From assembly GCA_002400365.1 (NCBI GenBank), contig DHFK01000084.1, positions 3,678 through 44,873 on the forward strand: a stretch of DNA of 41,196 nucleotides, read 5' to 3'. Positions 5,228-17,980 of the stretch are shown piece by piece (the first letter of the stretch is position 1; each line of letters begins with the position of its first letter). The notes beneath the pieces were generated by a model. The model saw nothing but the letters and a program-made list of their open reading frames with translations. It ran no database searches and was not told where the DNA came from. The translations under genes and the position numbers were made by a program. The stretch comes from Anaerolineales bacterium UBA4826. GTDB taxonomy: Bacteria; Chloroflexota; Anaerolineae; UBA4142.

Positions 5228-6214
5228 TCACCGTGTCACCAACTGGAATGTCAGATAGTAGCGCGTGTGCGCGTTCTGGATTTTCATGCGCACGCTGTAC
5301 AACCCCAAGCCGCTGATCTTGTCGCTAGGATACGCGCCGCCAACCTGGATGGGCCAATGGTTCGCGATGAACGAGTAGTTGCAGTTGCACATGTCGCTCG
5401 CGGGTTTTTCGGGACCCAGATCGCCCACCGTCGCGAGGGTGCCGTCGTCTTTGGTTACTTTGAGCGGCGCGCTCTCACGCCAGCCGCCCGCGCCGATTAG
5501 CATTACGTAGATGTTGGTGCCGGTGTCGCCGCCGGGCAGATTGGGACAATCATTACGCGTGTCGCGGTCGTCGCAATAGAGCGCGCGCGCGAGATGCCAG
5601 TACTTTTGCCCCGCCGCGACGCTCACCGGTTCGAATTTTGCGCCAGGGGGCCATTCGGCGGGGAAGGGCGGGATCCAATTCGTCGGCGCGATCGGCGCGG
5701 GCTTGGTCGCCGTCGCGCGCGGGCGCGTGGGCGTACGCGTGGGCGTTGCCGGGGGCGTGGTCGTTTCAGTCGCCGTGGGTGTGAGCGTCGGCGCGGTCGT
5801 TCGGGTCGGCGGCGGCGTCAGCGTGGCGGTGGGCGTTGGGGTCGTCGCGATGAACGCGATCGCTTGATCGGGATTCCCCAGCGCGACAGCGAGCGCAGCC
5901 AGATTCGCGGCGCTCGGATCGTTCTGGGTGTTGTACTGCTTTGCCAGCGCGGCAACGCGGTCGTTCACCGCGGGATCCTTTAGTTGCGTCAGGCGTTCGC
6001 GGGCGCGGGGCAGGTTGTGATCCAGGGCGTACGCGTTTGCCACGAGCACCACCAGTTCTTCTTGCGCCGCGGGCTTCAAGTCGGTCGCGTCAACATTGGC
6101 GATTTGCACGGGCCATAGACTCCAGCCCACCCATAGTCCAGTGGCAAGCCCGCAGACCAAGCCCAACGCGATGACCACGATCAGCGCGCGCGCGCCGAGT
6201 TTCAGTTCAGTCAT
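5228..6214 (-). CDS. Membrane-anchored protein: N-terminal TM, helical segment, Pro/Thr-rich linker, Cys-containing C-terminal domain shared with the upstream gene
   Basis: 328 aa. TM helix ALIVVIALGLVCGLATGLWVGW, linker TTPTPTATLTPPPTRTTAPTLTPTATETTTPPATPTRTPTRP, and C-terminal motifs GQKYWHLARALY and PSDKISGLGL. Confidence 0.65.
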   Translation of the reverse strand: MTELKLGARALIVVIALGLVCGLATGLWVGWSLWPVQIANVDATDLKPAAQEELVVLVANAYALDHNLPRARERLTQLKDPAVNDRVAALAKQYNTQNDPSAANLAALAVALGNPDQAIAFIATTPTPTATLTPPPTRTTAPTLTPTATETTTPPATPTRTPTRPRATATKPAPIAPTNWIPPFPAEWPPGAKFEPVSVAAGQKYWHLARALYCDDRDTRNDCPNLPGGDTGTNIYVMLIGAGGWRESAPLKVTKDDGTLATVGDLGPEKPASDMCNCNYSFIANHWPIQVGGAYPSDKISGLGLYSVRMKIQNAHTRYYLTFQLVTR

Positions 6215-6217
6215 CTG

Positions 6218-8173
6218 CTATTTGTTTCTTTCCACGTCCAGAAAAGTTGCGATGGCGCGCTTCCAGGTCAAGAGAAAACTGACGTGTTGCTTGAGCGGCA
6301 ATCCGATGCCGCGCACGCGGTCGCTGGGCAAGCCGTCAACCCATGCCTGGTATGCCCCCGTCTCGCCGCGCTCGGGCGCAAACGATGCCCACAGGGGTAG
6401 ATTCGCTTCGCCCCGTTCATTCGTCAGCGCGTCGGTCGCGCCATCCGACCAGCCCTGCCACACCTTTTGATATTCGATCGGTTTGTTCTGCTGGTCAACG
6501 ACAGTGTAGTAAACCTGGTGCTCGTCGTTCGATTCGCCGGGACCTTGATAGATCGCGCGGACGAGTTTCCAGTACGCCTGGCCCGGTTCGATCTCGGCTG
6601 GCTCGATGGCTAGCCCCAGTGCGTCGAGACGCCAATCCCATTCCACTTGAGCGGGGATGGCTAGCGGTTCGGACGGAGGCGCGATCGGTTTTTCCGTCGG
6701 CGGCGCCATTTCTTCCGGCGCGGCGATGGTCGGCGTCACGCGCTCGGGCGCTGGCGCGGCGATCGGTGCTTCGACGACCGGTGCTCGCGCCGGCGCGCTG
6801 GGAGTTGGCAGCGGTGTATCGCGCAGCCACGATGGGAAATCGGCTGGCGCGCGCCGCGCTGGCGGCGCGATGAATTCCGGCGCGGCAGGCGCGTGCACGA
6901 TCGGTTCGACTTGTTCCGGCGCGGGCTTGGGGCGGAGCGGGATTGCGGGTTGGATTGGCGGCGTCGGCTGCGCGCCCGGCAAGCGACGCGCGAGATTCTG
7001 CATGGCTTTAACTGTATCAACGACGGGCAGGCGATCGCCCAACGTCACGTGCGGGACGGCGATTGCCGGAATGTCGTCAAAGCCAAAGGGCGCGTCTTGG
7101 AAGGCGCGCTGCCAAAACGCGCTGCGCCACGCGTCCGGTTCGTGCGCGTCCGATGCGATCAAGAGCGTCGGGACGGCGGCGAAATAGTAATCGGGCGCTT
7201 GTCGCTGCATATAGTCGAACAGCGCGACGGTTTGGTCGCGCTGCGCCTCGGGCGTGACGCGCGGGTAACGCACATCCTCGCGCTGGCCCACGTGATAACC
7301 ACCGGCGACGCTGATGATCGGGATCGAGCGTCCCAGGTATCTTATTGCCAGCGCGTCATAGTATTCGAATTCGCGAAAGCACGCGTGGTCTTGCGCGAGC
7401 GCCGGCGTCGAGTTCGCGCCGTTCGCGCGCAGAACGTTGATTTCGTCGAGCGTGTCCGCGCGGCGGTGCGCGGCGTTCCACCACGCCCATTGCGCGAACA
7501 GGCCAAGATCGTATTGCTCTAGCGTGAGCGCCTGCCCGGCGCGATTGATCGGATCGTCCGGAAAATTGAGTGGGCGATTCTGACACTCGTTGCGCAGCGC
7601 GATCCAGCACCCTTCCAGCAAAATGTCTTGGCGACCGAGCGCGAGCAGCGCGCTCATCAAATCCATGTTGCCGCCGCCGCTGATGGCGGGCAAGCCGGGC
7701 AAGCCGCCGGCGGACAGGATCAAGCGCGCGTCGAAGAGCCAGTTGAGCGCGACGATTTTCGCGGCTTCCAGCGGATGGCTGGGCATCGCGTTGTGTTTCC
7801 ATTCCGTCGCGAGATTCGGCTCGTTGTTCGTCTCAAAATATCGAACGCCCGCGGTAATCAGGCGTTCGATTGTTTTCTCTTCGGGTCCGCCGATGTGACC
7901 GGGATTTGGCTCGGGGGTGTCGTTGGGCGGCGGATCTCGACGGAGAATGCGGACAATCGGAAAAATGCCGGCGGCGAGCAGTTTCTCGCACCAGGGCAGA
8001 CTGCTGCCGCGATCGTCAAGTACCTTGAACCACTTGACACCCATCTCGACGAGTTCGTTGATCCAGTAGGCGTAACCTTCATTGCCGCCGGTCCAGGCGG
8101 CATCCAGACTGCCGTGAAGACCACGCCCGTTGTCGCTCGGCGGGCGCGGGAAATCTTTCAGGTCTTTCGGCAT
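6218..8173 (-). CDS. Putative glycoside-hydrolase-like (TIM-barrel, NEP motif) protein with a Pro-rich linker and a C-terminal domain paralogous to that of 5228-6214
   Basis: 651 aa with a GGAGGAAG SD. RYFETNNEPNL resembles the clan GH-A acid/base motif. Pro/Ala-rich linker at about aa 410-520. C-terminal motifs GQAYWKLVRAIY and PSDRVRGIGL. No obvious signal peptide. Confidence 0.6.
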   Translation of the reverse strand: MPKDLKDFPRPPSDNGRGLHGSLDAAWTGGNEGYAYWINELVEMGVKWFKVLDDRGSSLPWCEKLLAAGIFPIVRILRRDPPPNDTPEPNPGHIGGPEEKTIERLITAGVRYFETNNEPNLATEWKHNAMPSHPLEAAKIVALNWLFDARLILSAGGLPGLPAISGGGNMDLMSALLALGRQDILLEGCWIALRNECQNRPLNFPDDPINRAGQALTLEQYDLGLFAQWAWWNAAHRRADTLDEINVLRANGANSTPALAQDHACFREFEYYDALAIRYLGRSIPIISVAGGYHVGQREDVRYPRVTPEAQRDQTVALFDYMQRQAPDYYFAAVPTLLIASDAHEPDAWRSAFWQRAFQDAPFGFDDIPAIAVPHVTLGDRLPVVDTVKAMQNLARRLPGAQPTPPIQPAIPLRPKPAPEQVEPIVHAPAAPEFIAPPARRAPADFPSWLRDTPLPTPSAPARAPVVEAPIAAPAPERVTPTIAAPEEMAPPTEKPIAPPSEPLAIPAQVEWDWRLDALGLAIEPAEIEPGQAYWKLVRAIYQGPGESNDEHQVYYTVVDQQNKPIEYQKVWQGWSDGATDALTNERGEANLPLWASFAPERGETGAYQAWVDGLPSDRVRGIGLPLKQHVSFLLTWKRAIATFLDVERNK

Positions 8174-12870: not shown

Positions 12871-12899
12871 TTGACAAACCCGTTCTCCATCGCTATAAT
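12871..12899 (+). promoter_or_regulatory. Consensus sigma70 promoter of the trxA redox operon
   Basis: TTGACA (12871-12876), exactly 17 nt spacer, TATAAT (12894-12899). Confidence 0.8.
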
Positions 12900-12907
12900 C
12901 GAATATA

Positions 12908-12928
12908 GCATACCCCGGTAGGGTATGC
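12908..12928 (+). promoter_or_regulatory. Palindromic operator candidate gcATACCC-cggta-GGGTATgc (CsoR-family-type site)
   Basis: Perfect 8-bp inverted repeat with a 5-nt centre, starting about 9 nt after the -10 box, so it overlaps the expected TSS. A CsoR-family repressor is encoded in the same operon. Confidence 0.55.
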
Positions 12929-12946: not shown

Positions 12947-13282
12947 ATGAGCGCAAACGGCCCTTTGCACGTTACCGACGCGGACTTCCAGAAAACGGTC
13001 TTGGACGCCAAGACGCCGGTGCTGGTTGATTTCTGGGCGACGTGGTGCGGTCCCTGTCGGATGATCGCGCCCTTCGTCGAAGAGATCGCGCGCGATTACG
13101 CCGGGAAGGCGGTCGTCGCGAAAATAGACACGGACGCGAACCCGCAGACGCCGATGAAGTACGGCATCCTGGGTATTCCAACTTTGATTATTTTCAAGAA
13201 TGGCCGAGAGGTGGATCGCATCGTCGGCGCAGCGCCCAAGGCGGCAATCACCAAGAAACTTGACGCGGTGTTAGCGAGGTAG
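12947..13282 (+). CDS. trxA: Thioredoxin
   Basis: 111 aa. VLVDFWATWCGPCRMIAP...GIPTLIIFKNG. A GAGGAGG SD lies upstream. Confidence 0.93.
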   Translation: MSANGPLHVTDADFQKTVLDAKTPVLVDFWATWCGPCRMIAPFVEEIARDYAGKAVVAKIDTDANPQTPMKYGILGIPTLIIFKNGREVDRIVGAAPKAAITKKLDAVLAR

Positions 13283-13287
13283 GGGAG

Positions 13288-13491
13288 ATGCCGATTTACG
13301 AATATCATTGTGACGATTGTAAGGAACCCTTTGACCTGTTCGTTCGATCGGTCAACGCGGCGGTCAAGGCAGTCTGTCCCCAATGCGGCAGCGAGCATGT
13401 CGAAAAGGCGGTGACGGCGGCGAGCGCGCTCGGGCTGGGGAACGCGTCGTCGTTTGCCTCGTCGGCGGCTTCGTGCGCGCCAACCGGCTGA
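13288..13491 (+). CDS. FmdB-family zinc-ribbon protein
   Basis: 67 aa. MPIYEYHCDDCKEPFDLF...CPQCGS is the FmdB/CxxC_CxxC_SSSS signature. Confidence 0.8.
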   Translation: MPIYEYHCDDCKEPFDLFVRSVNAAVKAVCPQCGSEHVEKAVTAASALGLGNASSFASSAASCAPTG

Positions 13492-13545
13492 GCGCTGCCG
13501 CAGCGGTAGCCCGTTGGGTTACCTCAGAGAGCAGAGGTGGTTGGA

Positions 13546-13812
13546 ATGGCTCGGGAGTTCAAAACCGAGATGGTCAAGCGTTTGAAACGGATCGAAGGGC
13601 AAACGCGCGGCGTGCAAAAGATGGTGGAGGAAGACCGCAGTTGCGCGGAAATCCTGCATCAACTGACCGCGATCAACGAGGCGGTGCACAGCGTGAGTCG
13701 AATGCTGGCCGAGCAGTACGCCGTCGAGTGTATGCAGACGACGAGCACGCGCGGGAAATCGCGCGCGGCGATCGCGACGATGATTGACGTGCTGTCGCGG
13801 GTACCGCGGTAA
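13546..13812 (+). CDS. CsoR/RcnR/FrmR-family metal- or thiol-sensing transcriptional repressor (two-Cys type)
   Basis: The track ORF starts at the GTG at 13537. The ATG at 13546 lies 8 nt after the AGAGG SD. RLKRIEGQTRGVQKMVEEDRSCAEILHQLTAI is the family core, and the C-terminal part contains EQYAVEC. Confidence 0.85.
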   Translation: MAREFKTEMVKRLKRIEGQTRGVQKMVEEDRSCAEILHQLTAINEAVHSVSRMLAEQYAVECMQTTSTRGKSRAAIATMIDVLSRVPR

Positions 13813-13814
13813 GA

Positions 13815-13895
13815 GCGAATGGCAAATAGCAAATGGCGAATGGCTTATGGCTGATTGCAGTCTGCTATACGCCATATGCTATACGCTATTCGCCA
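13815..13895. repeat. Hairpin repeat of about 7-nt units (aatggc/aatagc ... gctatac/gctattc)
   Basis: gcgaatggcaaatagcaaatggcgaatggc ... gctatacgccatatgctatacgctattcgcc. It produces the spurious MANGLWLIAVCYTPYAIRYSP N-terminus of track ORF 13833. Confidence 0.8.
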
Positions 13896-13907
13896 AGAGG
13901 GGGTTGT

Positions 13908-14618
13908 GTGGCTTTGTTACGCGACGCTGACCGTGAGAACTTGCGCCAGGAATTGAGCAAGTTGCAAAACCCAGTCAAGTTGCTGTTTTTCTCACAGGCG
14001 TTGAATTGCGATTATTGTCCGTTGACCAAGCAAGTGCTCGAAGAGTTAGTTAGTCTGTCGGACAAGATTCAATTACAGGAATACAATTGCGCGATTGATC
14101 GCGACGCGGTCGCGCAGTACAAGATCGCGCGGGTGCCGGCAATCGCGCTGGTGCGCGTCGAGCCGCCGAAACTCTTGGTGACCGGCAACGAGCCGTCGCG
14201 CGAACGCGATTACGGCATTCGCTACTATGGCGTGCCGGCGGGCTTTGAATTCGCCGCGCTCGTCGGCGACATCATGGACGTTTCGCTCGGCGAGTCCGGC
14301 TTGAGCGACCAGAGCAAAGCCGCGCTCAGGCAACTGAAAGAACCGCTGCACTTGCAGGTCTTTGCGACCCCGACTTGACCGCATTGCCCGCGTGCGGTCA
14401 GGTTGACCCACAAAATGGCGATGGAAAGTGAATTGATTACGGCGGACATGGTCGAGGCGTCCGAGTACCCTGAACTCTCCGAGTTGTATCAGGTGTACGG
14501 CGTGCCGCTGACCGTCGCCAACGAAAAAGTGCGCGTGGAAGGCGGGATGCCAGAGCAGGTATTCATTTCGCAGATTCTGCAAGGCATCGGCGTGAGCCCC
14601 ATGGTGTCGGAGAACTAA
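13908..14618 (+). CDS. Two-domain protein disulfide oxidoreductase (PDO/glutaredoxin-like) with an in-frame TGA at 14376-14378; candidate Sec-containing UPHC active site
   Basis: Track ORFs 13833-14378 and 14403-14618 are in the same frame with no other stop between them. The joined translation ...LHLQVFATPT-[TGA]-PHCPRAVRLTHKMAMESELITADMVEASEYPELSELYQVYGVP... matches the second Trx-fold unit of archaeal/Thermotoga PDO (VFVTPTCPYCPLAVRMAHKFA...MVEAIEYPEW). The first unit carries CDYC. The GTG at 13908 follows an AAGAGGGGG SD and matches where the homologue N-terminus begins (LISDADKK ~ LLRDADRE). Confidence 0.65.
14376..14420 (+). promoter_or_regulatory. Candidate bacterial SECIS region downstream of the in-frame UGA
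   Basis: Two mutually exclusive hairpins read by eye. (A) UGACCGCA/UGCGGUCA, 8 bp, 14376-14400. (B) 14392-14411, GUG-(bulged C)-GGUCA / loop GGU / UGACC-CAC, starting 13 nt after the UGA. Confidence 0.45.
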
Positions 14619-14624
14619 TCGTCC

Positions 14625-15053
14625 ATGCGCGTGCTCATTTGGCACGTAGATTCTTTCGTCTGCCGGATCACCGAGAAAGGTCGTTCGCCCGTCGTCGAAC
14701 CGATGGGCGAACGCGCGACGCGCGTTGGCGAAGCGTTGCTGGTGCTGGCGAGCGTCGAAAAATCGGACGAGCGCGCGCCCCAAATCGTCGCGCAGCGCGC
14801 GGCGGCAATGCTGGCGGAACACGCGCGCAAACTTGGAGTGAACGCGCTCGTGCTACATTCGTTCGCGCATTTGTTCGCGGAACTTGCGGCGCCGGCGATT
14901 GCGGTGGAGGCGCTGAAGGAAACCGAACGGTTGCTGCGCGCGGAGGGTTTTTCGGTTTCCCGTCCGCCGTTTGGCTGGTTCAACGAACTGGAAATCAAAG
15001 CGAAAGGACACCCCCTCTCGCGGTTGGCGCGGACGATTTCGGCTGAGGTGTGA
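14625..15053 (+). CDS. Free-standing archaeal-type threonyl-tRNA synthetase editing domain (tRNA-Thr_ED / DTD2-like fold)
   Basis: 142 aa. MRVLIWHVDSF...ALLVLASVEKSDE...LHSFAHLFAELAAP...PPFGWFNELEIKAKGHPLSRLARTI closely parallels the Pyrococcus ThrRS N-terminal editing domain as I remember it (MRMLLIHSDY...ISVEK...YPFAHLSSELAKP...[25 protein letters not shown]). It starts 6 nt after the PDO stop. Confidence 0.78.
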   Translation: MRVLIWHVDSFVCRITEKGRSPVVEPMGERATRVGEALLVLASVEKSDERAPQIVAQRAAAMLAEHARKLGVNALVLHSFAHLFAELAAPAIAVEALKETERLLRAEGFSVSRPPFGWFNELEIKAKGHPLSRLARTISAEV

Positions 15054-15054
15054 G

Positions 15055-15453
15055 ATGGATCCGATCGAAAAGATTTACAAGGAATACAAGACGATTGCGG
15101 TGGTTGGCGCGTCGAACAATCCGGCGCGACCGAGTTATGAGGTCGCCAAGTATTTGCAGGATCATGGGTTCAAGATCATTCCGGTCAACCCAACGCTTGC
15201 CGAACTCTTCGGCGAAAAGTGTTACCCCGACGTGCGCTCGATTCCGGGATCGGTGGATGTCGTTGATATTTTCCGCAATCCAGATGCGGTGCCGGAGATC
15301 GTCGAGCAGGCGATTGCGAAAAAGGCAAAGGTGGTATGGCTGCAGCCGGGCGCGGAGAATCCTCAAGCCGCCGAGCGCGCGACGCAAGCCGGGCTGGAAG
15401 TGATTATGGGCGTGTGCATGATGAAAGAGCATCGCGGGTTGCAGTCGGGATAA
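15055..15453 (+). CDS. CoA-binding domain protein (YccU/YneT-like)
   Basis: The internal ATG at 15055 lies 1 nt after the upstream TGA. MDPIEKIYKEYKTIAVVGASNNPARPSYEVAKYLQDHGFKIIPVNP is typical of the CoA_binding_2 family. Confidence 0.88.
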   Translation: MDPIEKIYKEYKTIAVVGASNNPARPSYEVAKYLQDHGFKIIPVNPTLAELFGEKCYPDVRSIPGSVDVVDIFRNPDAVPEIVEQAIAKKAKVVWLQPGAENPQAAERATQAGLEVIMGVCMMKEHRGLQSG

Positions 15454-15545: not shown

Positions 15546-16010
15546 ATGGCAGAAGTGAAAACTGCATCGGTGAAATGGGTTGAGGGGTTGGAGTTCCAGA
15601 CCTTTACGGGGTCGGGGCATCAGGGCGTGATCGACGCGGGCGACAAGTCAGGCGGCAAGAATCATGGTCCCAGCCCGATGGAACTTGTGCTGGTCGGTCT
15701 CGCGGGATGCACGGCCATGGATGTGATTGACATCCTGCGGAAAAAACGCTTGGCGGTGAGCGGCTTGGAGGTGAAGGTCGAAGGGACGCGCGCGGAAACG
15801 CATCCGATGTATTACACGAATCTTGACGTGGTCTACGTCGTGCGCGGCAAAGACATTCCGCCGAGTGCGGTCAAGCAGGCGATTCATTTGTCGGAAGAAA
15901 GGTATTGCAGCGTTGGCGTGATGCTCGGCAAATCGGCGCGGATCAACAGCCGCTACGAGATCATCGCGGAGCAAAATGGTTGGGATAAATTATCGTGTGC
16001 CGGTGATTGA
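15546..16010 (+). CDS. OsmC-family peroxiredoxin-like protein
   Basis: 154 aa. GPSPMELVLVGLAGCTAMDVIDIL and SEERYCSVGVML carry the two conserved OsmC cysteines. Confidence 0.88.
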   Translation: MAEVKTASVKWVEGLEFQTFTGSGHQGVIDAGDKSGGKNHGPSPMELVLVGLAGCTAMDVIDILRKKRLAVSGLEVKVEGTRAETHPMYYTNLDVVYVVRGKDIPPSAVKQAIHLSEERYCSVGVMLGKSARINSRYEIIAEQNGWDKLSCAGD

Positions 16011-16179
16011 CGCCGCCAAATGCCAGGCGTGCCGCCAATGCCTGGCGCGCAAGGCGTGTCGGCTGAAAGCGCTGGCGCAGTTCGAGGCGCACGAGTTACC
16101 GTACGTTGATCGCGAGTTGTGTCGCGGTTGTTTGTTGTGCCTGGCGGAATGTCCGTTTCAGGCGATTGTGGCGGAGTAG
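15976..16179 (+). CDS. Small 2x[4Fe-4S]-type ferredoxin-like protein
   Basis: 67 aa. CQACRQCLARKAC and CRGCLLCLAECP cluster motifs. Overlaps the OsmC 3' end by 35 nt. Confidence 0.65.
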   Translation: MVGINYRVPVIDAAKCQACRQCLARKACRLKALAQFEAHELPYVDRELCRGCLLCLAECPFQAIVAE

Positions 16180-16180
16180 A

Positions 16181-16208
16181 GGCGAGAGTATCTCGCCCTT
16201 TTTTGTTC
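16181..16208 (+). terminator. Rho-independent terminator closing the redox operon
   Basis: ggcgaga-gta-tctcgcc followed by cttttttgtt. Confidence 0.8.
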
Positions 16209-16237
16209 TTGCAATAATTCCCGGTCGTTTGTATAAT
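16209..16237 (+). promoter_or_regulatory. Near-consensus sigma70 promoter
   Basis: TTGCAA (16209-16214), 17 nt spacer, TATAAT (16232-16237). An AGAGGAGG SD and the ATG at 16263 follow. Confidence 0.7.
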
Positions 16238-16262
16238 CCAAGTCAGAGGAGGCAACTGGCGT

Positions 16263-16463
16263 ATGATCATCACCACCGAACTGAAAACGGACGGCACAGT
16301 CATCGGCGCGTTGACCGCGAACCCGAAAGAATTCAAGACCGGCAGTCGCGGTTTCTACGGGCAAGGCAAGATCGAGATTGACGGCAAGCGCTACCAAGTT
16401 CAAATTCAACTCGTCGAAATCGGCAGCAAAAAGACTGCCGGAGAAAGCGACTCGAAGGAGTAA
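16263..16463 (+). CDS. Small hypothetical protein (66 aa)
   Basis: Strong promoter and SD. MIITTELKTDGTVIGALTANPKEFKTGSRGFYGQGKIEIDGKRYQVQIQLVEIGSKK. I am confident of no family. Confidence 0.55.
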   Translation: MIITTELKTDGTVIGALTANPKEFKTGSRGFYGQGKIEIDGKRYQVQIQLVEIGSKKTAGESDSKE

Positions 16464-16477
16464 ACAAGGATGCGTTC

Positions 16478-17980
16478 ATGACCGGACGCCGGCTCTACGT
16501 CATCACTTTTGCGATGATGCTCAGTTTGTTTCTCGCTTCGATTGAAGCGACCGTCGTTGCCACCGCGATGCCGACGATTGCCGCACAACTGGGCGGACTC
16601 GAAATCTACGCGTGGGTCTTTTCCGCATACCTACTCACCTCGACGACCACAATCCCGATCTTTGGCAAACTCTCCGATATTTACGGACGCCGCCGCATCT
16701 ATCTCCTCGCGGTCGTGGTTTTCATGCTCGGTTCCGCGCTGTGCGGACAGGCGCAAACGATGCCGCAACTCATTCTCTTTCGCGCGCTGCAAGGTCTGGG
16801 CGCGGGCGGCATTCAACCGCTGGCATTCACCATCATCGGTGATATTTTCACTTTTGAACAACGCGCCAAAATGCAAGGATTGTTTTCGGGCGTGTGGGGC
16901 TTGTCAAGTCTCATCGGTCCGCTCGTCGGCGGATTCTTCGTGGACTATGTTTCGTGGCACTGGGTTTTCTATCTGAACGTGCCGTTCGGCTTGCTGGGCA
17001 TCGCGTTGATGCTTGCCGCGTGGCGCGACGTGAATCCGCGCACGGGAGGCAGTGTGGATTATCTCGGCGCGGCGCTGCTCAGCGGCGGCATTGTCGCGTT
17101 GATGCTCGCGCTGTTCGAGTTGCGCACGGGCTTGCAGACGAACTGGCGCGTCATCGGATTCGCGCTGCTGAGCGCGCTCGTCATGCTGATTGCGCTCGTG
17201 TTCGTCGAACGCCGCGCCGCGAATCCGATGTTGCCGCTCGCGCTCTTTCGGGAACGCCTGTTTGTCTCTGCGATCGGTCATGGTTTCTGCGCGGGCTTTG
17301 CCTTGTTCGGGAGCGCGGCGTTCGTGCCGCTTTTCGTCCAAGCCGTACTGGGCTTGAGCGCGACCGTCGCCGGCGCGACCTTGACGCCGCAGTTGTTTAG
17401 TTGGACGATTGCAAGCATTGTCGGCACGCGCTTGCTGCTGCGTTACCATTTCCGCTCGCTCGCGTTGAGCGGGGTGACCATGCTGTTGCTCGGTCTGACC
17501 CTGTTGACCCAGGTGAGCGCGACGACGCCGCAGTGGGTCTTGGCGATCGGCATGGCGTTAACCGGCGTCGGGATGGGGCTGTCCGTTCCGATCTTTTTGA
17601 TCGCGGTGCAGTCCACTGTGCCGCGGCCCCTGTTGGGCGCCGCGACCTCGACACTGCAATTCGGCCGCAGCATCGGCGGCGCGATCGGGACGAGTGTGCT
17701 GGGGGTGGTCCTCGCGGTTCGGCTCGCGGGCAGTCTCGTCGCGGCGGGATCTGATCCGAACCAGGTTTCGGTGGATGCGCTGCTCGATGCGAACGCGGGC
17801 GCGTCCGGCGCGCTAACCGACGCGTTGCGCGGCGCGTTGACGGGCGCGGTGCAGACTGTGTTCGTCGTCGCGCTCGTCGCCGGGGTCGGCGCGTGGATCG
17901 CGGTCGCGTTCGCGCCGCGCGTTCAAATCGGGACGCGCGTGCCCGTGCGCGTCGCGGAAAAAAGCGCGCCGGCAGAGTAG
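16478..17980 (+). CDS. MFS transporter, DHA2 (EmrB/QacA-like, about 14 TM) drug:H+ antiporter family
   Basis: 500 aa. LSLFLASIEATVVATAMPTIA...GKLSDIYGRRR...LQGLGAGG motifs. Confidence 0.88.
   Translation: MTGRRLYVITFAMMLSLFLASIEATVVATAMPTIAAQLGGLEIYAWVFSAYLLTSTTTIPIFGKLSDIYGRRRIYLLAVVVFMLGSALCGQAQTMPQLILFRALQGLGAGGIQPLAFTIIGDIFTFEQRAKMQGLFSGVWGLSSLIGPLVGGFFVDYVSWHWVFYLNVPFGLLGIALMLAAWRDVNPRTGGSVDYLGAALLSGGIVALMLALFELRTGLQTNWRVIGFALLSALVMLIALVFVERRAANPMLPLALFRERLFVSAIGHGFCAGFALFGSAAFVPLFVQAVLGLSATVAGATLTPQLFSWTIASIVGTRLLLRYHFRSLALSGVTMLLLGLTLLTQVSATTPQWVLAIGMALTGVGMGLSVPIFLIAVQSTVPRPLLGAATSTLQFGRSIGGAIGTSVLGVVLAVRLAGSLVAAGSDPNQVSVDALLDANAGASGALTDALRGALTGAVQTVFVVALVAGVGAWIAVAFAPRVQIGTRVPVRVAEKSAPAE

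What the first reader, a model, noticed from the sequence alone, without database searches (positions are those of the whole stretch)
14625..15053. Stand-alone archaeal-type ThrRS editing domain (DTD2-like) embedded in a bacterial redox-stress operon
- **Similarity:** The 142-aa product matches the N-terminal editing domain of archaeal threonyl-tRNA synthetase almost motif for motif (MRVLIWH..., SVEK, FAHL..ELA.P, PFGW...KAKGHPLS.LARTI). That fold is the one shared with D-aminoacyl-tRNA deacylase DTD2.
- **Not fused:** There is no synthetase body. It starts 6 nt after the PDO stop and ends 1 nt before the CoA-binding gene.
- **Why it is odd:** Bacterial ThrRS normally uses an unrelated N2 editing domain. 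A free trans-acting copy in a bacterium, co-transcribed with thioredoxin-system genes and a CsoR/FrmR-family regulator, is unexpected.
- **Hypothesis:** It may proofread or repair aminoacyl-tRNA under oxidative or aldehyde stress. ThrRS editing is known to be oxidation-sensitive in E. coli, and DTD2 has been reported to clear aldehyde-modified D-aa-tRNA.
Basis: partly seen in the sequence, partly recalled or inferred. Interest (0 to 1): 0.6.

Follow-up and report, generated by a model that had tools for sequence, protein, structure and literature searches.

The report
Free-standing ThrRS-type tRNA editing protein
A small bacterial gene encodes a free-standing copy of the tRNA-proofreading domain that archaea normally carry fused to threonyl-tRNA synthetase; it belongs to a widespread, already noticed but never tested family with a remodelled substrate pocket, and only in this narrow lineage does it sit inside a thiol-stress operon.

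Summary
ORF 14625..15053 (+) encodes a 142-aa protein that matches Pfam tRNA-Thr_ED end to end (E 3e-35). Its model superposes on the P. abyssi editing domain at TM 0.94.

Three parts of the interpretation need correcting.
- **Fold:** it is the DTD1-like fold, not DTD2.
- **Rarity:** the protein is not an oddity. At least 1,328 stand-alone clusters exist in more than 10 bacterial phyla and some archaea. Mukai et al. (2017, supplement) already noted such homologues as widely distributed and untested.
- **Redox context:** the operon is conserved only in two close relatives. Part of it, a selenocysteine PDO upstream, recurs in one Clostridiales MAG. That is 3 of 80 loci.

New here:
- The stand-alone family is a separate clade from all ThrRS-fused domains.
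- It has near-invariant swaps at the pocket (Pab Y120F, K121N, E134R).
- It coexists with fully editing-competent ThrRS in bacteria and archaea.

The local operon has a perfect sigma-70 promoter, a CsoR-type operator and a His-less CsoR-family repressor.

Best reading: a Cys-free, trans-acting aminoacyl-tRNA deacylase. In this lineage it is probably recruited as a stress-inducible backup for the oxidation-sensitive N2 editing site. The substrate is unproven.

The scan has flagged this family before on four other genomes.

The parts
12871..12899 (+). sigma-70 promoter-like site, TTGACA-17-TATAAT (12 of 12)
   Evidence: sequence read
12908..12928 (.). perfect inverted repeat GCATACCC-N5-GGGTATGC just after the -10 box. 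It has the ATACCC...GGGTAT form that I recall for CsoR-family operators (recall, not tested).
12947..13282 (+). thioredoxin (111 aa), first gene of the operon
   Evidence: Pfam PF00085 E 1e-34
13288..13491 (+). Zn-ribbon protein (67 aa)
   Evidence: Pfam PF09723 E 1e-15
13537..13812 (+). CsoR-family repressor. It keeps both Cys, but the Cu-ligand His, four residues before the second Cys, is Tyr.
   Evidence: Pfam PF02583 E 5e-24; alignment to CsoR 4m1p and to 7mq1
13833..14618 (+). PDO-like protein with two thioredoxin folds. An in-frame TGA at 14376-14378 gives TPT-U-PHC, a likely selenocysteine.
   Evidence: The TGA is conserved in L007, L008 and L085. SelA and tRNA-SeC are in the genome.
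14625..15053 (+). the finding: stand-alone tRNA-Thr_ED protein (142 aa) with a DTD1-like fold, of the GRS / F-N / R subfamily
15055..15453 (+). CoA_binding_2 protein (132 aa); its start lies 1 nt after the ThrED stop
   Evidence: Pfam PF13380 E 1e-45
15546..16010 (+). OsmC-family protein (154 aa)
   Evidence: Pfam PF02566; NCBIfam NF008009 E 5e-36, 123.5 bits, below that model's 138-bit cut-off
15976..16179 (+). small 4Fe-4S ferredoxin (67 aa), last gene of the operon
   Evidence: Pfam Fer4 families
16181..16197 (+). terminator-like hairpin followed by CTTTTTTGTT

Best explanation
The gene encodes a homodimeric, free-standing enzyme of the DTD1-like fold. This is the fold of the archaeal ThrRS N-terminal editing domain (NTD). 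The enzyme most likely hydrolyses the ester bond of wrongly acylated tRNA in trans.

It belongs to a distinct stand-alone subfamily, mostly bacterial. The subfamily keeps the NTD core (H82-L83, F116-G117-W118, G128-H129-P130) but has a remodelled amino-acid pocket (F119, N120, R133 from the partner subunit). None of its near-invariant positions is a cysteine.

In this lineage the gene has been placed inside an eight-gene thiol-stress operon: trx, Zn-ribbon, CsoR-family repressor, Sec-PDO, ThrED, CoA-binding, OsmC, ferredoxin. One promoter carrying a CsoR-type operator appears to drive it.

The most likely role here is a stress-induced, oxidation-insensitive backup. It would clear mischarged tRNA, with Ser-tRNAThr (U73) the first candidate, when the cysteine-dependent N2 editing site of the host ThrRS is oxidised.

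- **Shown:** family membership, fold, subfamily signature, operon anatomy, intact N2 in thrS.
- **Predicted only:** the dimer.
- **Inferred:** deacylase activity, substrate, inducer, co-transcription.
For: **Fold and family**
- Full-length profile match.
- AF2 model with pLDDT 94.7. Foldseek gives TM 0.94 and rmsd 1.2 A to PabNTD and MjNTD.
- The homodimer model scores 0.91 against a best control of 0.00. The three runs agree in 100% of their contacts, and the partner's pLDDT is at least 94. In the tool's calibration this mark was reached by 20 of 30 proteins solved as pairs and by 1 of 23 solved as single chains. R133 touches H82 of the other copy. NTD dimers are solved, so this pass may be from memory.

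**Chemistry**
- Residues shared with fused NTDs include H82 (Pab H83) and the F80-A81 backbone, which forms the oxyanion hole in NTD (PMC4491819).
- NTD catalysis uses the tRNA A76 2'-OH and main-chain atoms, with no side-chain nucleophile (PMC4491819). This fits an oxidation-insensitive enzyme.
- Cys126 of fused domains (71%) is Ala here (93%).

**Selection**
- dN/dS is 0.11-0.13.

**Operon**
- Perfect promoter, operator-like repeat and terminator-like hairpin. The gaps on either side of ThrED are 6 nt and 1 nt.
- The repressor lacks the Cu-ligand His.
- Order and content are conserved in L007 and L008. Sec-PDO followed by ThrED recurs in a Clostridiales MAG, beside a peroxiredoxin-family (AhpC/TSA) gene.

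**Host**
- thrS keeps the CRGPH cysteine.
- All three tRNAThr genes have U73. A review reports U73 as the determinant of NTD-type editing (PMC11295145).

**Precedent**
- ATD, another DTD-fold deacylase, backs up ThrRS editing when C182 is oxidised (PMC7302879).
Against: - **No assay:** no activity has been measured for any member of this subfamily.
- **Altered residues:** the three chemically active side chains near the scissile bond in NTD differ here. These are Y120, K121 (which positions the catalytic water and is 100% conserved in fused domains) and E134. They are near-invariantly F, N and R. That argues for a different substrate rather than plain Ser-tRNAThr.
- **Coexistence:** the family coexists with cis-editing ThrRS in 5 of 5 archaeal and 4 of 5 bacterial genomes checked. 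It is therefore not a replacement.
- **Context:** across the family the neighbourhood is neither redox nor translation related. No Pfam family is adjacent in more than 5 of 68 co-directional neighbours. A PDO lies within 6 kb in only 3 of 80 loci.
- **Patchy presence:** 26 of 401 sampled genomes of the phylum carry the gene.
- **U73 does not discriminate:** genomes of the same class without the gene also have U73 tRNAThr.
Confidence: 0.45

Rival explanations
1. It is a trans-acting acyl-tRNA deacylase, but the substrate is not Ser-tRNAThr. The F / N / R pocket would select another misacylated or chemically altered species. Candidates are another U73 tRNA such as tRNACys or tRNAGly, an alpha-hydroxyacyl-tRNA, or an aminoacyl-tRNA whose alpha-amine is blocked or whose side chain is anionic. 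On this view the redox operon is a lineage-specific accident of gene order, or reflects damage to aa-tRNA rather than to ThrRS.
For: - The swaps at the pocket residues are near-invariant, including the charge reversal E134R across the dimer.
- The family is a separate clade from all fused NTDs (SH-aLRT 98).
- It coexists with cis-editing ThrRS in both domains.
- Mukai et al. reached the same suggestion, 'aminoacyl-tRNAs or hydroxyacyl-tRNAs', from the Glu135 change.
- The metabolic neighbourhoods vary, as for self-resistance deacylases of the AlaX family (PMC13149037).
Against: - In NTD the Y120 and E134 side chains are dispensable for Ser/Thr discrimination (PMC4491819). Changed side chains therefore need not change specificity.
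- No alternative substrate is indicated by any conserved neighbour.
- SepRS and SepCysS are not found in this genome, so the Ser-tRNACys idea has no source here.
Confidence: 0.35
2. The fold has been recruited for something other than tRNA. Examples are hydrolysis or binding of a small adenylated or CoA-linked ester, or a regulatory or chaperone partner of the neighbouring PDO or CoA-binding proteins.
For: - It has no anticodon-binding or other tRNA-binding domain.
- K121, the water-positioning residue of NTD, is lost.
- It is translationally packed between a PDO and a CoA-binding protein in three genomes.
Against: - Residues shared with fused NTDs are conserved. Isolated NTDs of 140 aa are active on tRNA in vitro (PMC4491819).
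- The PDO and CoA-binding neighbours are missing from 77 of 80 related loci, so they cannot be obligate partners.
Confidence: 0.12
3. One reading: a DTD2-like enzyme that clears D-aminoacyl-tRNA or aldehyde-modified D-aminoacyl-tRNA under aldehyde stress sensed by an FrmR-type regulator.
For: The regulator belongs to the CsoR/RcnR/FrmR superfamily.
Against: - No DTD2 (PF04414) match to the protein or anywhere in the genome.
- The structural neighbours are NTD, then DTD1.
- The regulator scores best against CsoR and RicR models. It scores far below the FrmR cut-off, 34 against 133 bits.
- A DTD1 gene is present for D-aminoacyl-tRNA.
Confidence: 0.05
4. A decaying or passenger gene acquired by horizontal transfer, with no current function.
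For: Patchy distribution and trans-domain spread.
Against: - Intact frame and dN/dS of 0.11-0.13.
- About 25 invariant residues across phyla.
- Tight operon packing conserved in relatives.
Confidence: 0.03

Closest known systems
[quoted passage not shown]
   Same: - Same Pfam family and fold (TM 0.94).
- Same predicted dimer with a cross-subunit pocket.
- Conserved H83-L84, FGW and GHP motifs and the F-A backbone of the oxyanion hole.
   Different: - No catalytic or anticodon-binding domain.
- Separate clade.
- Y120F, K121N, E134R, S85F, C127A and A-x-K to G-R-S at residues 19-21 (18-22 in Pab numbering), all 93-100% conserved.
- Found mainly in bacteria, and alongside a complete ThrRS.
Stand-alone 'tRNA-Thr-ED' proteins of Mukai et al. 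2017 (mBio, Text S1/Fig. S4) and 2022 (Front Genet)
   Same: - Same definition: the editing domain alone, Glu135 (Mj numbering) replaced, wide distribution among prokaryotes, function untested.
- Their sequence set contains a member with this exact signature (Peptococcaceae bacterium BRH_c8a KJS12371.1).
   Different: - The copies they discuss, linked to SepCysS or fused to SepRS, are of the canonical Y-K type.
- This genome shows no SepRS or SepCysS.
- They described neither the F-N-R clade as such nor a redox-operon context.
ATD (Animalia-specific tRNA deacylase) and DTD1
   Same: - Free-standing dimeric DTD-like fold deacylases.
- ATD is an oxidation-insensitive second tier behind the ThrRS N2 editing site.
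   Different: - Only distant structural similarity (DTD1 TM 0.67, 11-18% identity).
- No Pfam Tyr_Deacylase match.
- ATD edits Ala-tRNAThr in animals.
DTD2 (PF04414)
   Same: An aminoacyl-tRNA deacylase of archaea and plants.
   Different: No sequence or fold match here.

Membership tests
Pfam PF08915 tRNA-Thr_ED (NTD, DTD1-like fold) | Profile match above the gathering score over the whole domain | tested here: met
   121.7 bits against 30.2, positions 1-137 of 137
Pfam PF08915 tRNA-Thr_ED (NTD, DTD1-like fold) | Three-dimensional fold of PabNTD/MjNTD | tested here: met
   Model pLDDT 94.7; TM 0.93-0.95, rmsd 1.1-1.4 A
Pfam PF08915 tRNA-Thr_ED (NTD, DTD1-like fold) | Homodimer with the active site completed by the partner subunit | tested here: met
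   Prediction only. Score 0.91 against best control 0.00; the mark was reached by 20 of 30 solved pairs and 1 of 23 single chains; residue 133 contacts residue 82 of the other copy. NTD dimers are solved, so the pass may come from memory.
ThrRS-type Ser-tRNAThr editing domain (functional class) | His83 and the Pro/Phe/Ala backbone that forms the oxyanion hole | tested here: met
   S79-F80-A81-H82-L83. H82 and L83 are invariant in both clades.
ThrRS-type Ser-tRNAThr editing domain (functional class) | Lys121, which positions the catalytic water and is 100% conserved in fused domains | tested here: not met
   Asn in 98% of 80 stand-alone members, including this one
ThrRS-type Ser-tRNAThr editing domain (functional class) | Tyr120 and Glu134, the two side chains of the amino-acid pocket | tested here: not met
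   Phe (100%) and Arg (98%). Both are dispensable for discrimination in NTD (PMC4491819).
ThrRS-type Ser-tRNAThr editing domain (functional class) | Attachment to a ThrRS catalytic and/or anticodon-binding domain | tested here: not met
   142-aa ORF flanked by unrelated genes. Word-based search found no longer relatives. All fused forms fall in the other clade.
ThrRS-type Ser-tRNAThr editing domain (functional class) | Hydrolysis of Ser-tRNAThr but not Thr-tRNAThr | not testable with these tools
   Needs a deacylation assay
Stand-alone tRNA-Thr-ED group (Mukai 2017) | Editing domain alone, with the Glu135 (Mj) position substituted | tested here: met
   Same GRS...FAHLF...FGWFN...SRVAR signature as their Peptococcaceae sequence.
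DTD2 (PF04414) | Profile or fold match to DTD2 | tested here: not met
   The Pfam scan returns only PF08915. The genome search finds none. Every listed Foldseek hit is an NTD or a DTD1 structure.
DTD1 (PF02580) | Profile match to Tyr_Deacylase | tested here: not met
   No PF02580 hit to this protein; only fold-level likeness, TM 0.67. A separate DTD1 gene exists on C118.

The most novel reading that the evidence does not exclude
The GRS / F-N / R stand-alone proteins are a fourth functional branch of the DTD-like fold, beside DTD, NTD and ATD, and their substrate is not Ser-tRNAThr. The Glu-to-Arg reversal facing the aminoacyl group suggests acyl-tRNAs that lack a protonated alpha-amine (N-modified, alpha-hydroxyacyl) or that carry an anionic group. 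In this lineage the enzyme would be a stress-inducible repair factor for chemically damaged aminoacyl-tRNA, under a thiol-sensing CsoR-family repressor.
Probability: 0.25. Interest if true: 0.75.

Novelty: new variant of a known kind. Interest (0 to 1): 0.45.

Why it matters
**The open question.** Translation quality control by the DTD-like fold is described as three branches: DTD in bacteria and eukaryotes, NTD in archaeal ThrRS, and ATD in animals. Pfam still calls tRNA-Thr_ED 'Archaea-specific'.

**What this family adds.** It is a large stand-alone clade, mostly bacterial, with a consistently remodelled pocket. It sits beside editing-competent ThrRS, and its activity has never been measured.

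**Why this locus helps.**
- It offers a concrete hypothesis: an inducible, cysteine-free second tier for the oxidation-sensitive N2 site, as ATD is in animals.
- It offers a clean regulatory handle (promoter, operator, repressor) with which to test that hypothesis.
- If the substrate proves different, it would define a new proofreading or repair activity.

Tried and rejected
- **Longer relatives:** the word-based search for fused forms returned nothing. This is weak evidence only. Fused forms came from the exhaustive search.
- **SepRS/SepCysS link (Mukai's Ser-tRNACys idea):** SepRS was not found. There was only a 21.7-bit SepCysS-like hit in this 94%-complete genome. Rejected for this locus.
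- **Selenocysteine link:** SelA-like genes pass the cut-off in 308 of 401 sampled genomes of the phylum, so there can be no informative correlation with the gene. By my own reading of the two listings, about 22 of 25 genomes that carry the gene have one. That tally includes five genomes flagged unpublished (G232, G043, G150, G178, G277). No other claim rests on them.
- **tRNAThr discriminator:** U73 occurs in the host and in four ThrED-carrying genomes of four phyla. It also occurs in two same-class genomes without the gene. Compatible, but not diagnostic.
- **Conserved partner genes:** clustering of neighbours, a Pfam scan of 68 adjacent co-directional ORFs and a PDO HMM found none.
- **Expression:** no RNA holder is listed. 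The four DNA holders come from one aquatic-metagenome study.
- **Compensation for a missing DTD1:** the short match is an assembly gap (N run), not a truncation.
- **Internal terminator:** a weak terminator-like hairpin lies inside the first codons of the gene (14629-14647). It is treated as chance: 17 sites were found against 7.7 expected.

Full report
**1. The observation**

ORF 14625..15053 (+) runs from ATG to TGA and encodes 142 aa. The upstream gene ends with TAA at 14616-14618, 6 nt before the ATG. The next gene starts at 15055, 1 nt after the stop.

- Pfam gives one family: PF08915 tRNA-Thr_ED, E 3.1e-35, profile positions 1-137 of 137.
- NCBIfam matches only the first 141 positions of the archaeal ThrRS model and of the Ser-tRNA(Thr) hydrolase model.
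- The closest solved chains are the M. jannaschii and P. abyssi editing domains, E about 1e-22 over the full length.
- An AlphaFold2 model built on 16 relatives has pLDDT 94.7. It superposes on PabNTD and MjNTD at TM 0.93-0.95 and rmsd 1.1-1.4 A.
- dN/dS against the two nearest orthologues is 0.11-0.13.

The gene is real, intact and under selection.

**2. Which fold**

After the NTD structures, the next Foldseek hits are DTD1 proteins: E. coli 1jke at TM 0.67, then H. influenzae and P. falciparum. No DTD2 family matches the protein or the genome. Reviews and the primary papers place NTD in the DTD (DTD1)-like fold together with ATD. They treat DTD2 as a separate isoform (PMC11295145; PMC4491819). 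The 'DTD2-like' label should be dropped.

**3. How common it is**

- A length-restricted search found 1,328 clusters (90% identity) of 78-249 aa. Source names include Chloroflexota, Armatimonadetes, Nitrospinae, Tectomicrobia and Actinomycetota. NCBI already calls some of them 'threonyl-tRNA synthetase editing domain-containing protein'.
- In one genome per species, 178 loci encode a relative. The best 80 come from Chloroflexota, Binatota, Nitrospinota, Tectimicrobiota, Myxococcota, Acidobacteriota, Planctomycetota, Actinomycetota, Bacillota and Abditibacteriota. Nine are archaeal MAGs (Bathyarchaeia, Heimdall- and Freyarchaeota, Aenigmatarchaeota).
- Almost all are MAGs.
- Inside the window's phylum the gene is patchy: 26 of 401 sampled genomes and 20 of 218 genera.
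- The window's nearest relative is labelled Candidatus Aquidulcis, class Limnocylindria.

**4. A separate clade with its own pocket**

A tree of 149 sequences puts every ThrRS-fused or ThrRS-ed domain on one side of a branch with SH-aLRT 98. Canonical-type short proteins group with them. All 80 stand-alone loci, this one included, lie on the other side. This was a quick search on 146 columns, so deep order is unresolved. The nine archaeal stand-alone copies form one clade (97) among the bacterial ones.

Column counts for 80 stand-alone against 32 fused sequences show shared residues: H7, E45, D48, H82, L83, P90, A93, F116-G117-W118, G128-H129-P130-L131 and R136. They also show sharp, near-invariant differences:

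| Position (window) | Stand-alone | Fused |
|---|---|---|
| 19-21 | G-R-S | A-(I/L)-K |
| 78 | H | Y |
| 80 | F | Y |
| 84 | F | S |
| 119 | F | Y (100%) |
| 120 | N | K (100%) |
| 122 | L | F |
| 126 | A | C |
| 133 | R | E (96%) |
| 135 | A | S |

P. abyssi numbering is window +1, so these include Y120F, K121N and E134R.

In PabNTD, Tyr120 and Glu134 (from the partner subunit) are the two side chains of the amino-acid pocket. Lys121 positions the catalytic water. Discrimination and catalysis rest on main-chain atoms and the A76 2'-OH (PMC4491819).

A homodimer model scores 0.91 against a best control of 0.00. The three runs agree in 100% of their contacts and the partner's pLDDT is at least 94. 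In calibration this mark was reached by 20 of 30 proteins solved as pairs and by 1 of 23 solved as single chains. The model places residues 16-20, 80-85, 119-130 and 132-135 in the interface, and R133 against H82 of the other chain. NTD dimers are solved, so this shows likeness, not binding.

**5. It is not a replacement for a missing editing site**

- The host thrS (597 aa) lacks the N1/TGS domain. It has tRNA_SAD with HSAAH and CRGPH, the E. coli H73/H77 and C182/H186 motifs.
- Four of five other bacterial hosts have thrS matching the model from position 1 or 13.
- All five archaeal hosts checked carry a second PF08915 copy. In four it lies in a 623-651-aa frame, that is, a normal NTD-ThrRS.
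- DTD1 is present in the host; its short match is due to an assembly gap.

**6. Prior knowledge**

Mukai et al. (2017) defined 'tRNA-Thr-ED' proteins as editing domains without an anticodon-binding domain. They reported 'a wide distribution ... among prokaryotes' and noted that only the residue equal to Mj Glu135 is not conserved. They proposed hydrolysis of aminoacyl- or hydroxyacyl-tRNAs (Text S1).

Their sequence file contains a Peptococcaceae protein with exactly this family's signature. The copies they discuss in detail are of the canonical Y-K type: those linked to SepCysS, and the SepRS fusions of the 2022 paper. I found no paper in the held library that assays any stand-alone member or describes the F-N-R clade.

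The scan itself has four earlier first-reader notes on this family in other genomes. Two of them point to the same Asn/Arg swap.

**7. The operon**

- A perfect TTGACA-17-TATAAT lies at 12871-12899.
- It is followed at 12908-12928 by the perfect repeat GCATACCC-N5-GGGTATGC. This has the ATACCC...GGGTAT form that I recall for CsoR-family operators; that is recall, not a test.
- Eight co-directional genes follow: thioredoxin, Zn-ribbon protein, CsoR-family regulator, PDO-like protein, ThrED, CoA_binding_2, OsmC, 4Fe-4S ferredoxin.
- A hairpin plus T-run lies at 16181-16197.
- The regulator aligns to Geobacillus CsoR but has Tyr where the Cu-ligand His sits, four residues before the second Cys. 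The 7mq1 protein has Asn there. It is therefore more likely a thiol-based sensor than a copper sensor (inference).
- The PDO gene has an in-frame TGA that gives TPT-U-PHC.

**8. Is the context conserved?**

- The whole arrangement recurs in L007 (83% identical ThrED) and L008 (79%).
- In one Clostridiales MAG (L085, 55% identical) the gene again follows a Sec-PDO. An AhpC/TSA protein, a CsoR-like gene and a P-type ATPase with heavy-metal-binding (HMA) domains lie nearby.
- A PDO HMM finds no other case among the 80 loci.
- Among 68 adjacent co-directional ORFs, no family occurs more than five times. MFS occurs 5 times; DOPA dioxygenase, RidA and PNPOx 3 times each.
- Recurrent wider neighbours are generic enzymes.

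The redox link is therefore real but local.

**9. Mechanism**

The conserved core, the dimer and the NTD precedent make an acyl-tRNA deacylase the most likely activity. I put this at about 0.8 when the best explanation and rival 1 are summed.

For this locus I favour a stress-induced, cysteine-free backup for the N2 site. Three things support it:
- N2 editing is abolished by oxidation of C182 from bacteria to mammals.
- ATD, another DTD-fold enzyme, fills exactly that gap in animals (PMC7302879; PMC4041444 abstract).
- The host tRNAThr genes carry U73, the reported NTD determinant.

Against it stand the remodelled pocket and the family-wide lack of any redox or ThrRS association. These keep a different substrate nearly as likely. 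U73 does not help to decide, because relatives without the gene have it too.

**10. Verdict**

The gene is a new, well-placed member of a known-but-untested variant of the NTD family. It is a moderately interesting lead for biochemistry, not a categorical novelty.

Noticed in passing
window 13833-14618 (TGA at 14376-14378); L007 about 5747; L008 about 1901; L085 4815-5669: The PDO-like gene upstream has an in-frame TGA exactly where the first Cys of its second CxxC motif should be (TPT-U-P[H/Y]CP). The TGA is conserved in two Chloroflexota relatives and in a Clostridiales MAG. The genome has SelA and tRNA-SeC(tca). A 14-bp hairpin (dG -23.8, z -3.0) spans the codon. This is probably a selenoprotein that table-11 gene callers would split in two.
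   Followed up: partly
window 13537-13812 and 12908-12928: The CsoR-family repressor keeps both Cys, but Tyr replaces the Cu-ligand His. A perfect 8+8 inverted repeat, GCATACCC-N5-GGGTATGC, sits directly after the -10 box of a 12/12 consensus promoter. This looks like an autoregulated, non-copper (thiol or persulfide?) sensor.
   Followed up: partly
L072 5460-5981 with 6001-6411; G270 contigs C11 and C19: Some Chloroflexia genomes carry tandem pairs. A copy matching only profile positions 1-119, and so lacking the C-terminal KGHP...R segment, lies directly upstream of a full copy. This may be a heterodimer or a decaying duplicate.
   Followed up: no
L002 1468-3261 (own genome, contig C103): The host ThrRS is 597 aa and starts directly with the N2 editing domain. 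No TGS/N1 domain is detected.
   Followed up: partly
L035, L040, L042, L043, L046, L050, L056, L065, L018: The nine archaeal stand-alone copies form one clade (SH-aLRT 97) placed among bacterial sequences, and they coexist with NTD-ThrRS. This suggests a single bacterium-to-archaeon transfer, but the tree is unrooted and shallow.
   Followed up: partly
phylum sample: SelA passes its curated cut-off in 308 of 401 sampled genomes of the phylum, a strikingly high share. The tally includes five genomes flagged unpublished.
   Followed up: no
window 16209-16463: A promoter-like site (10 of 12) at 16209-16237 precedes a 66-aa ORF (16263-16463) with no Pfam match. The ORF lies just upstream of a 500-aa transporter-like ORF (16478-17980) that I did not run through Pfam.
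   Followed up: no
L006 1477-1827 (own genome, contig C118): The DTD1 gene is interrupted by a run of N (a scaffold gap), so automated annotation may call it truncated.
   Followed up: yes
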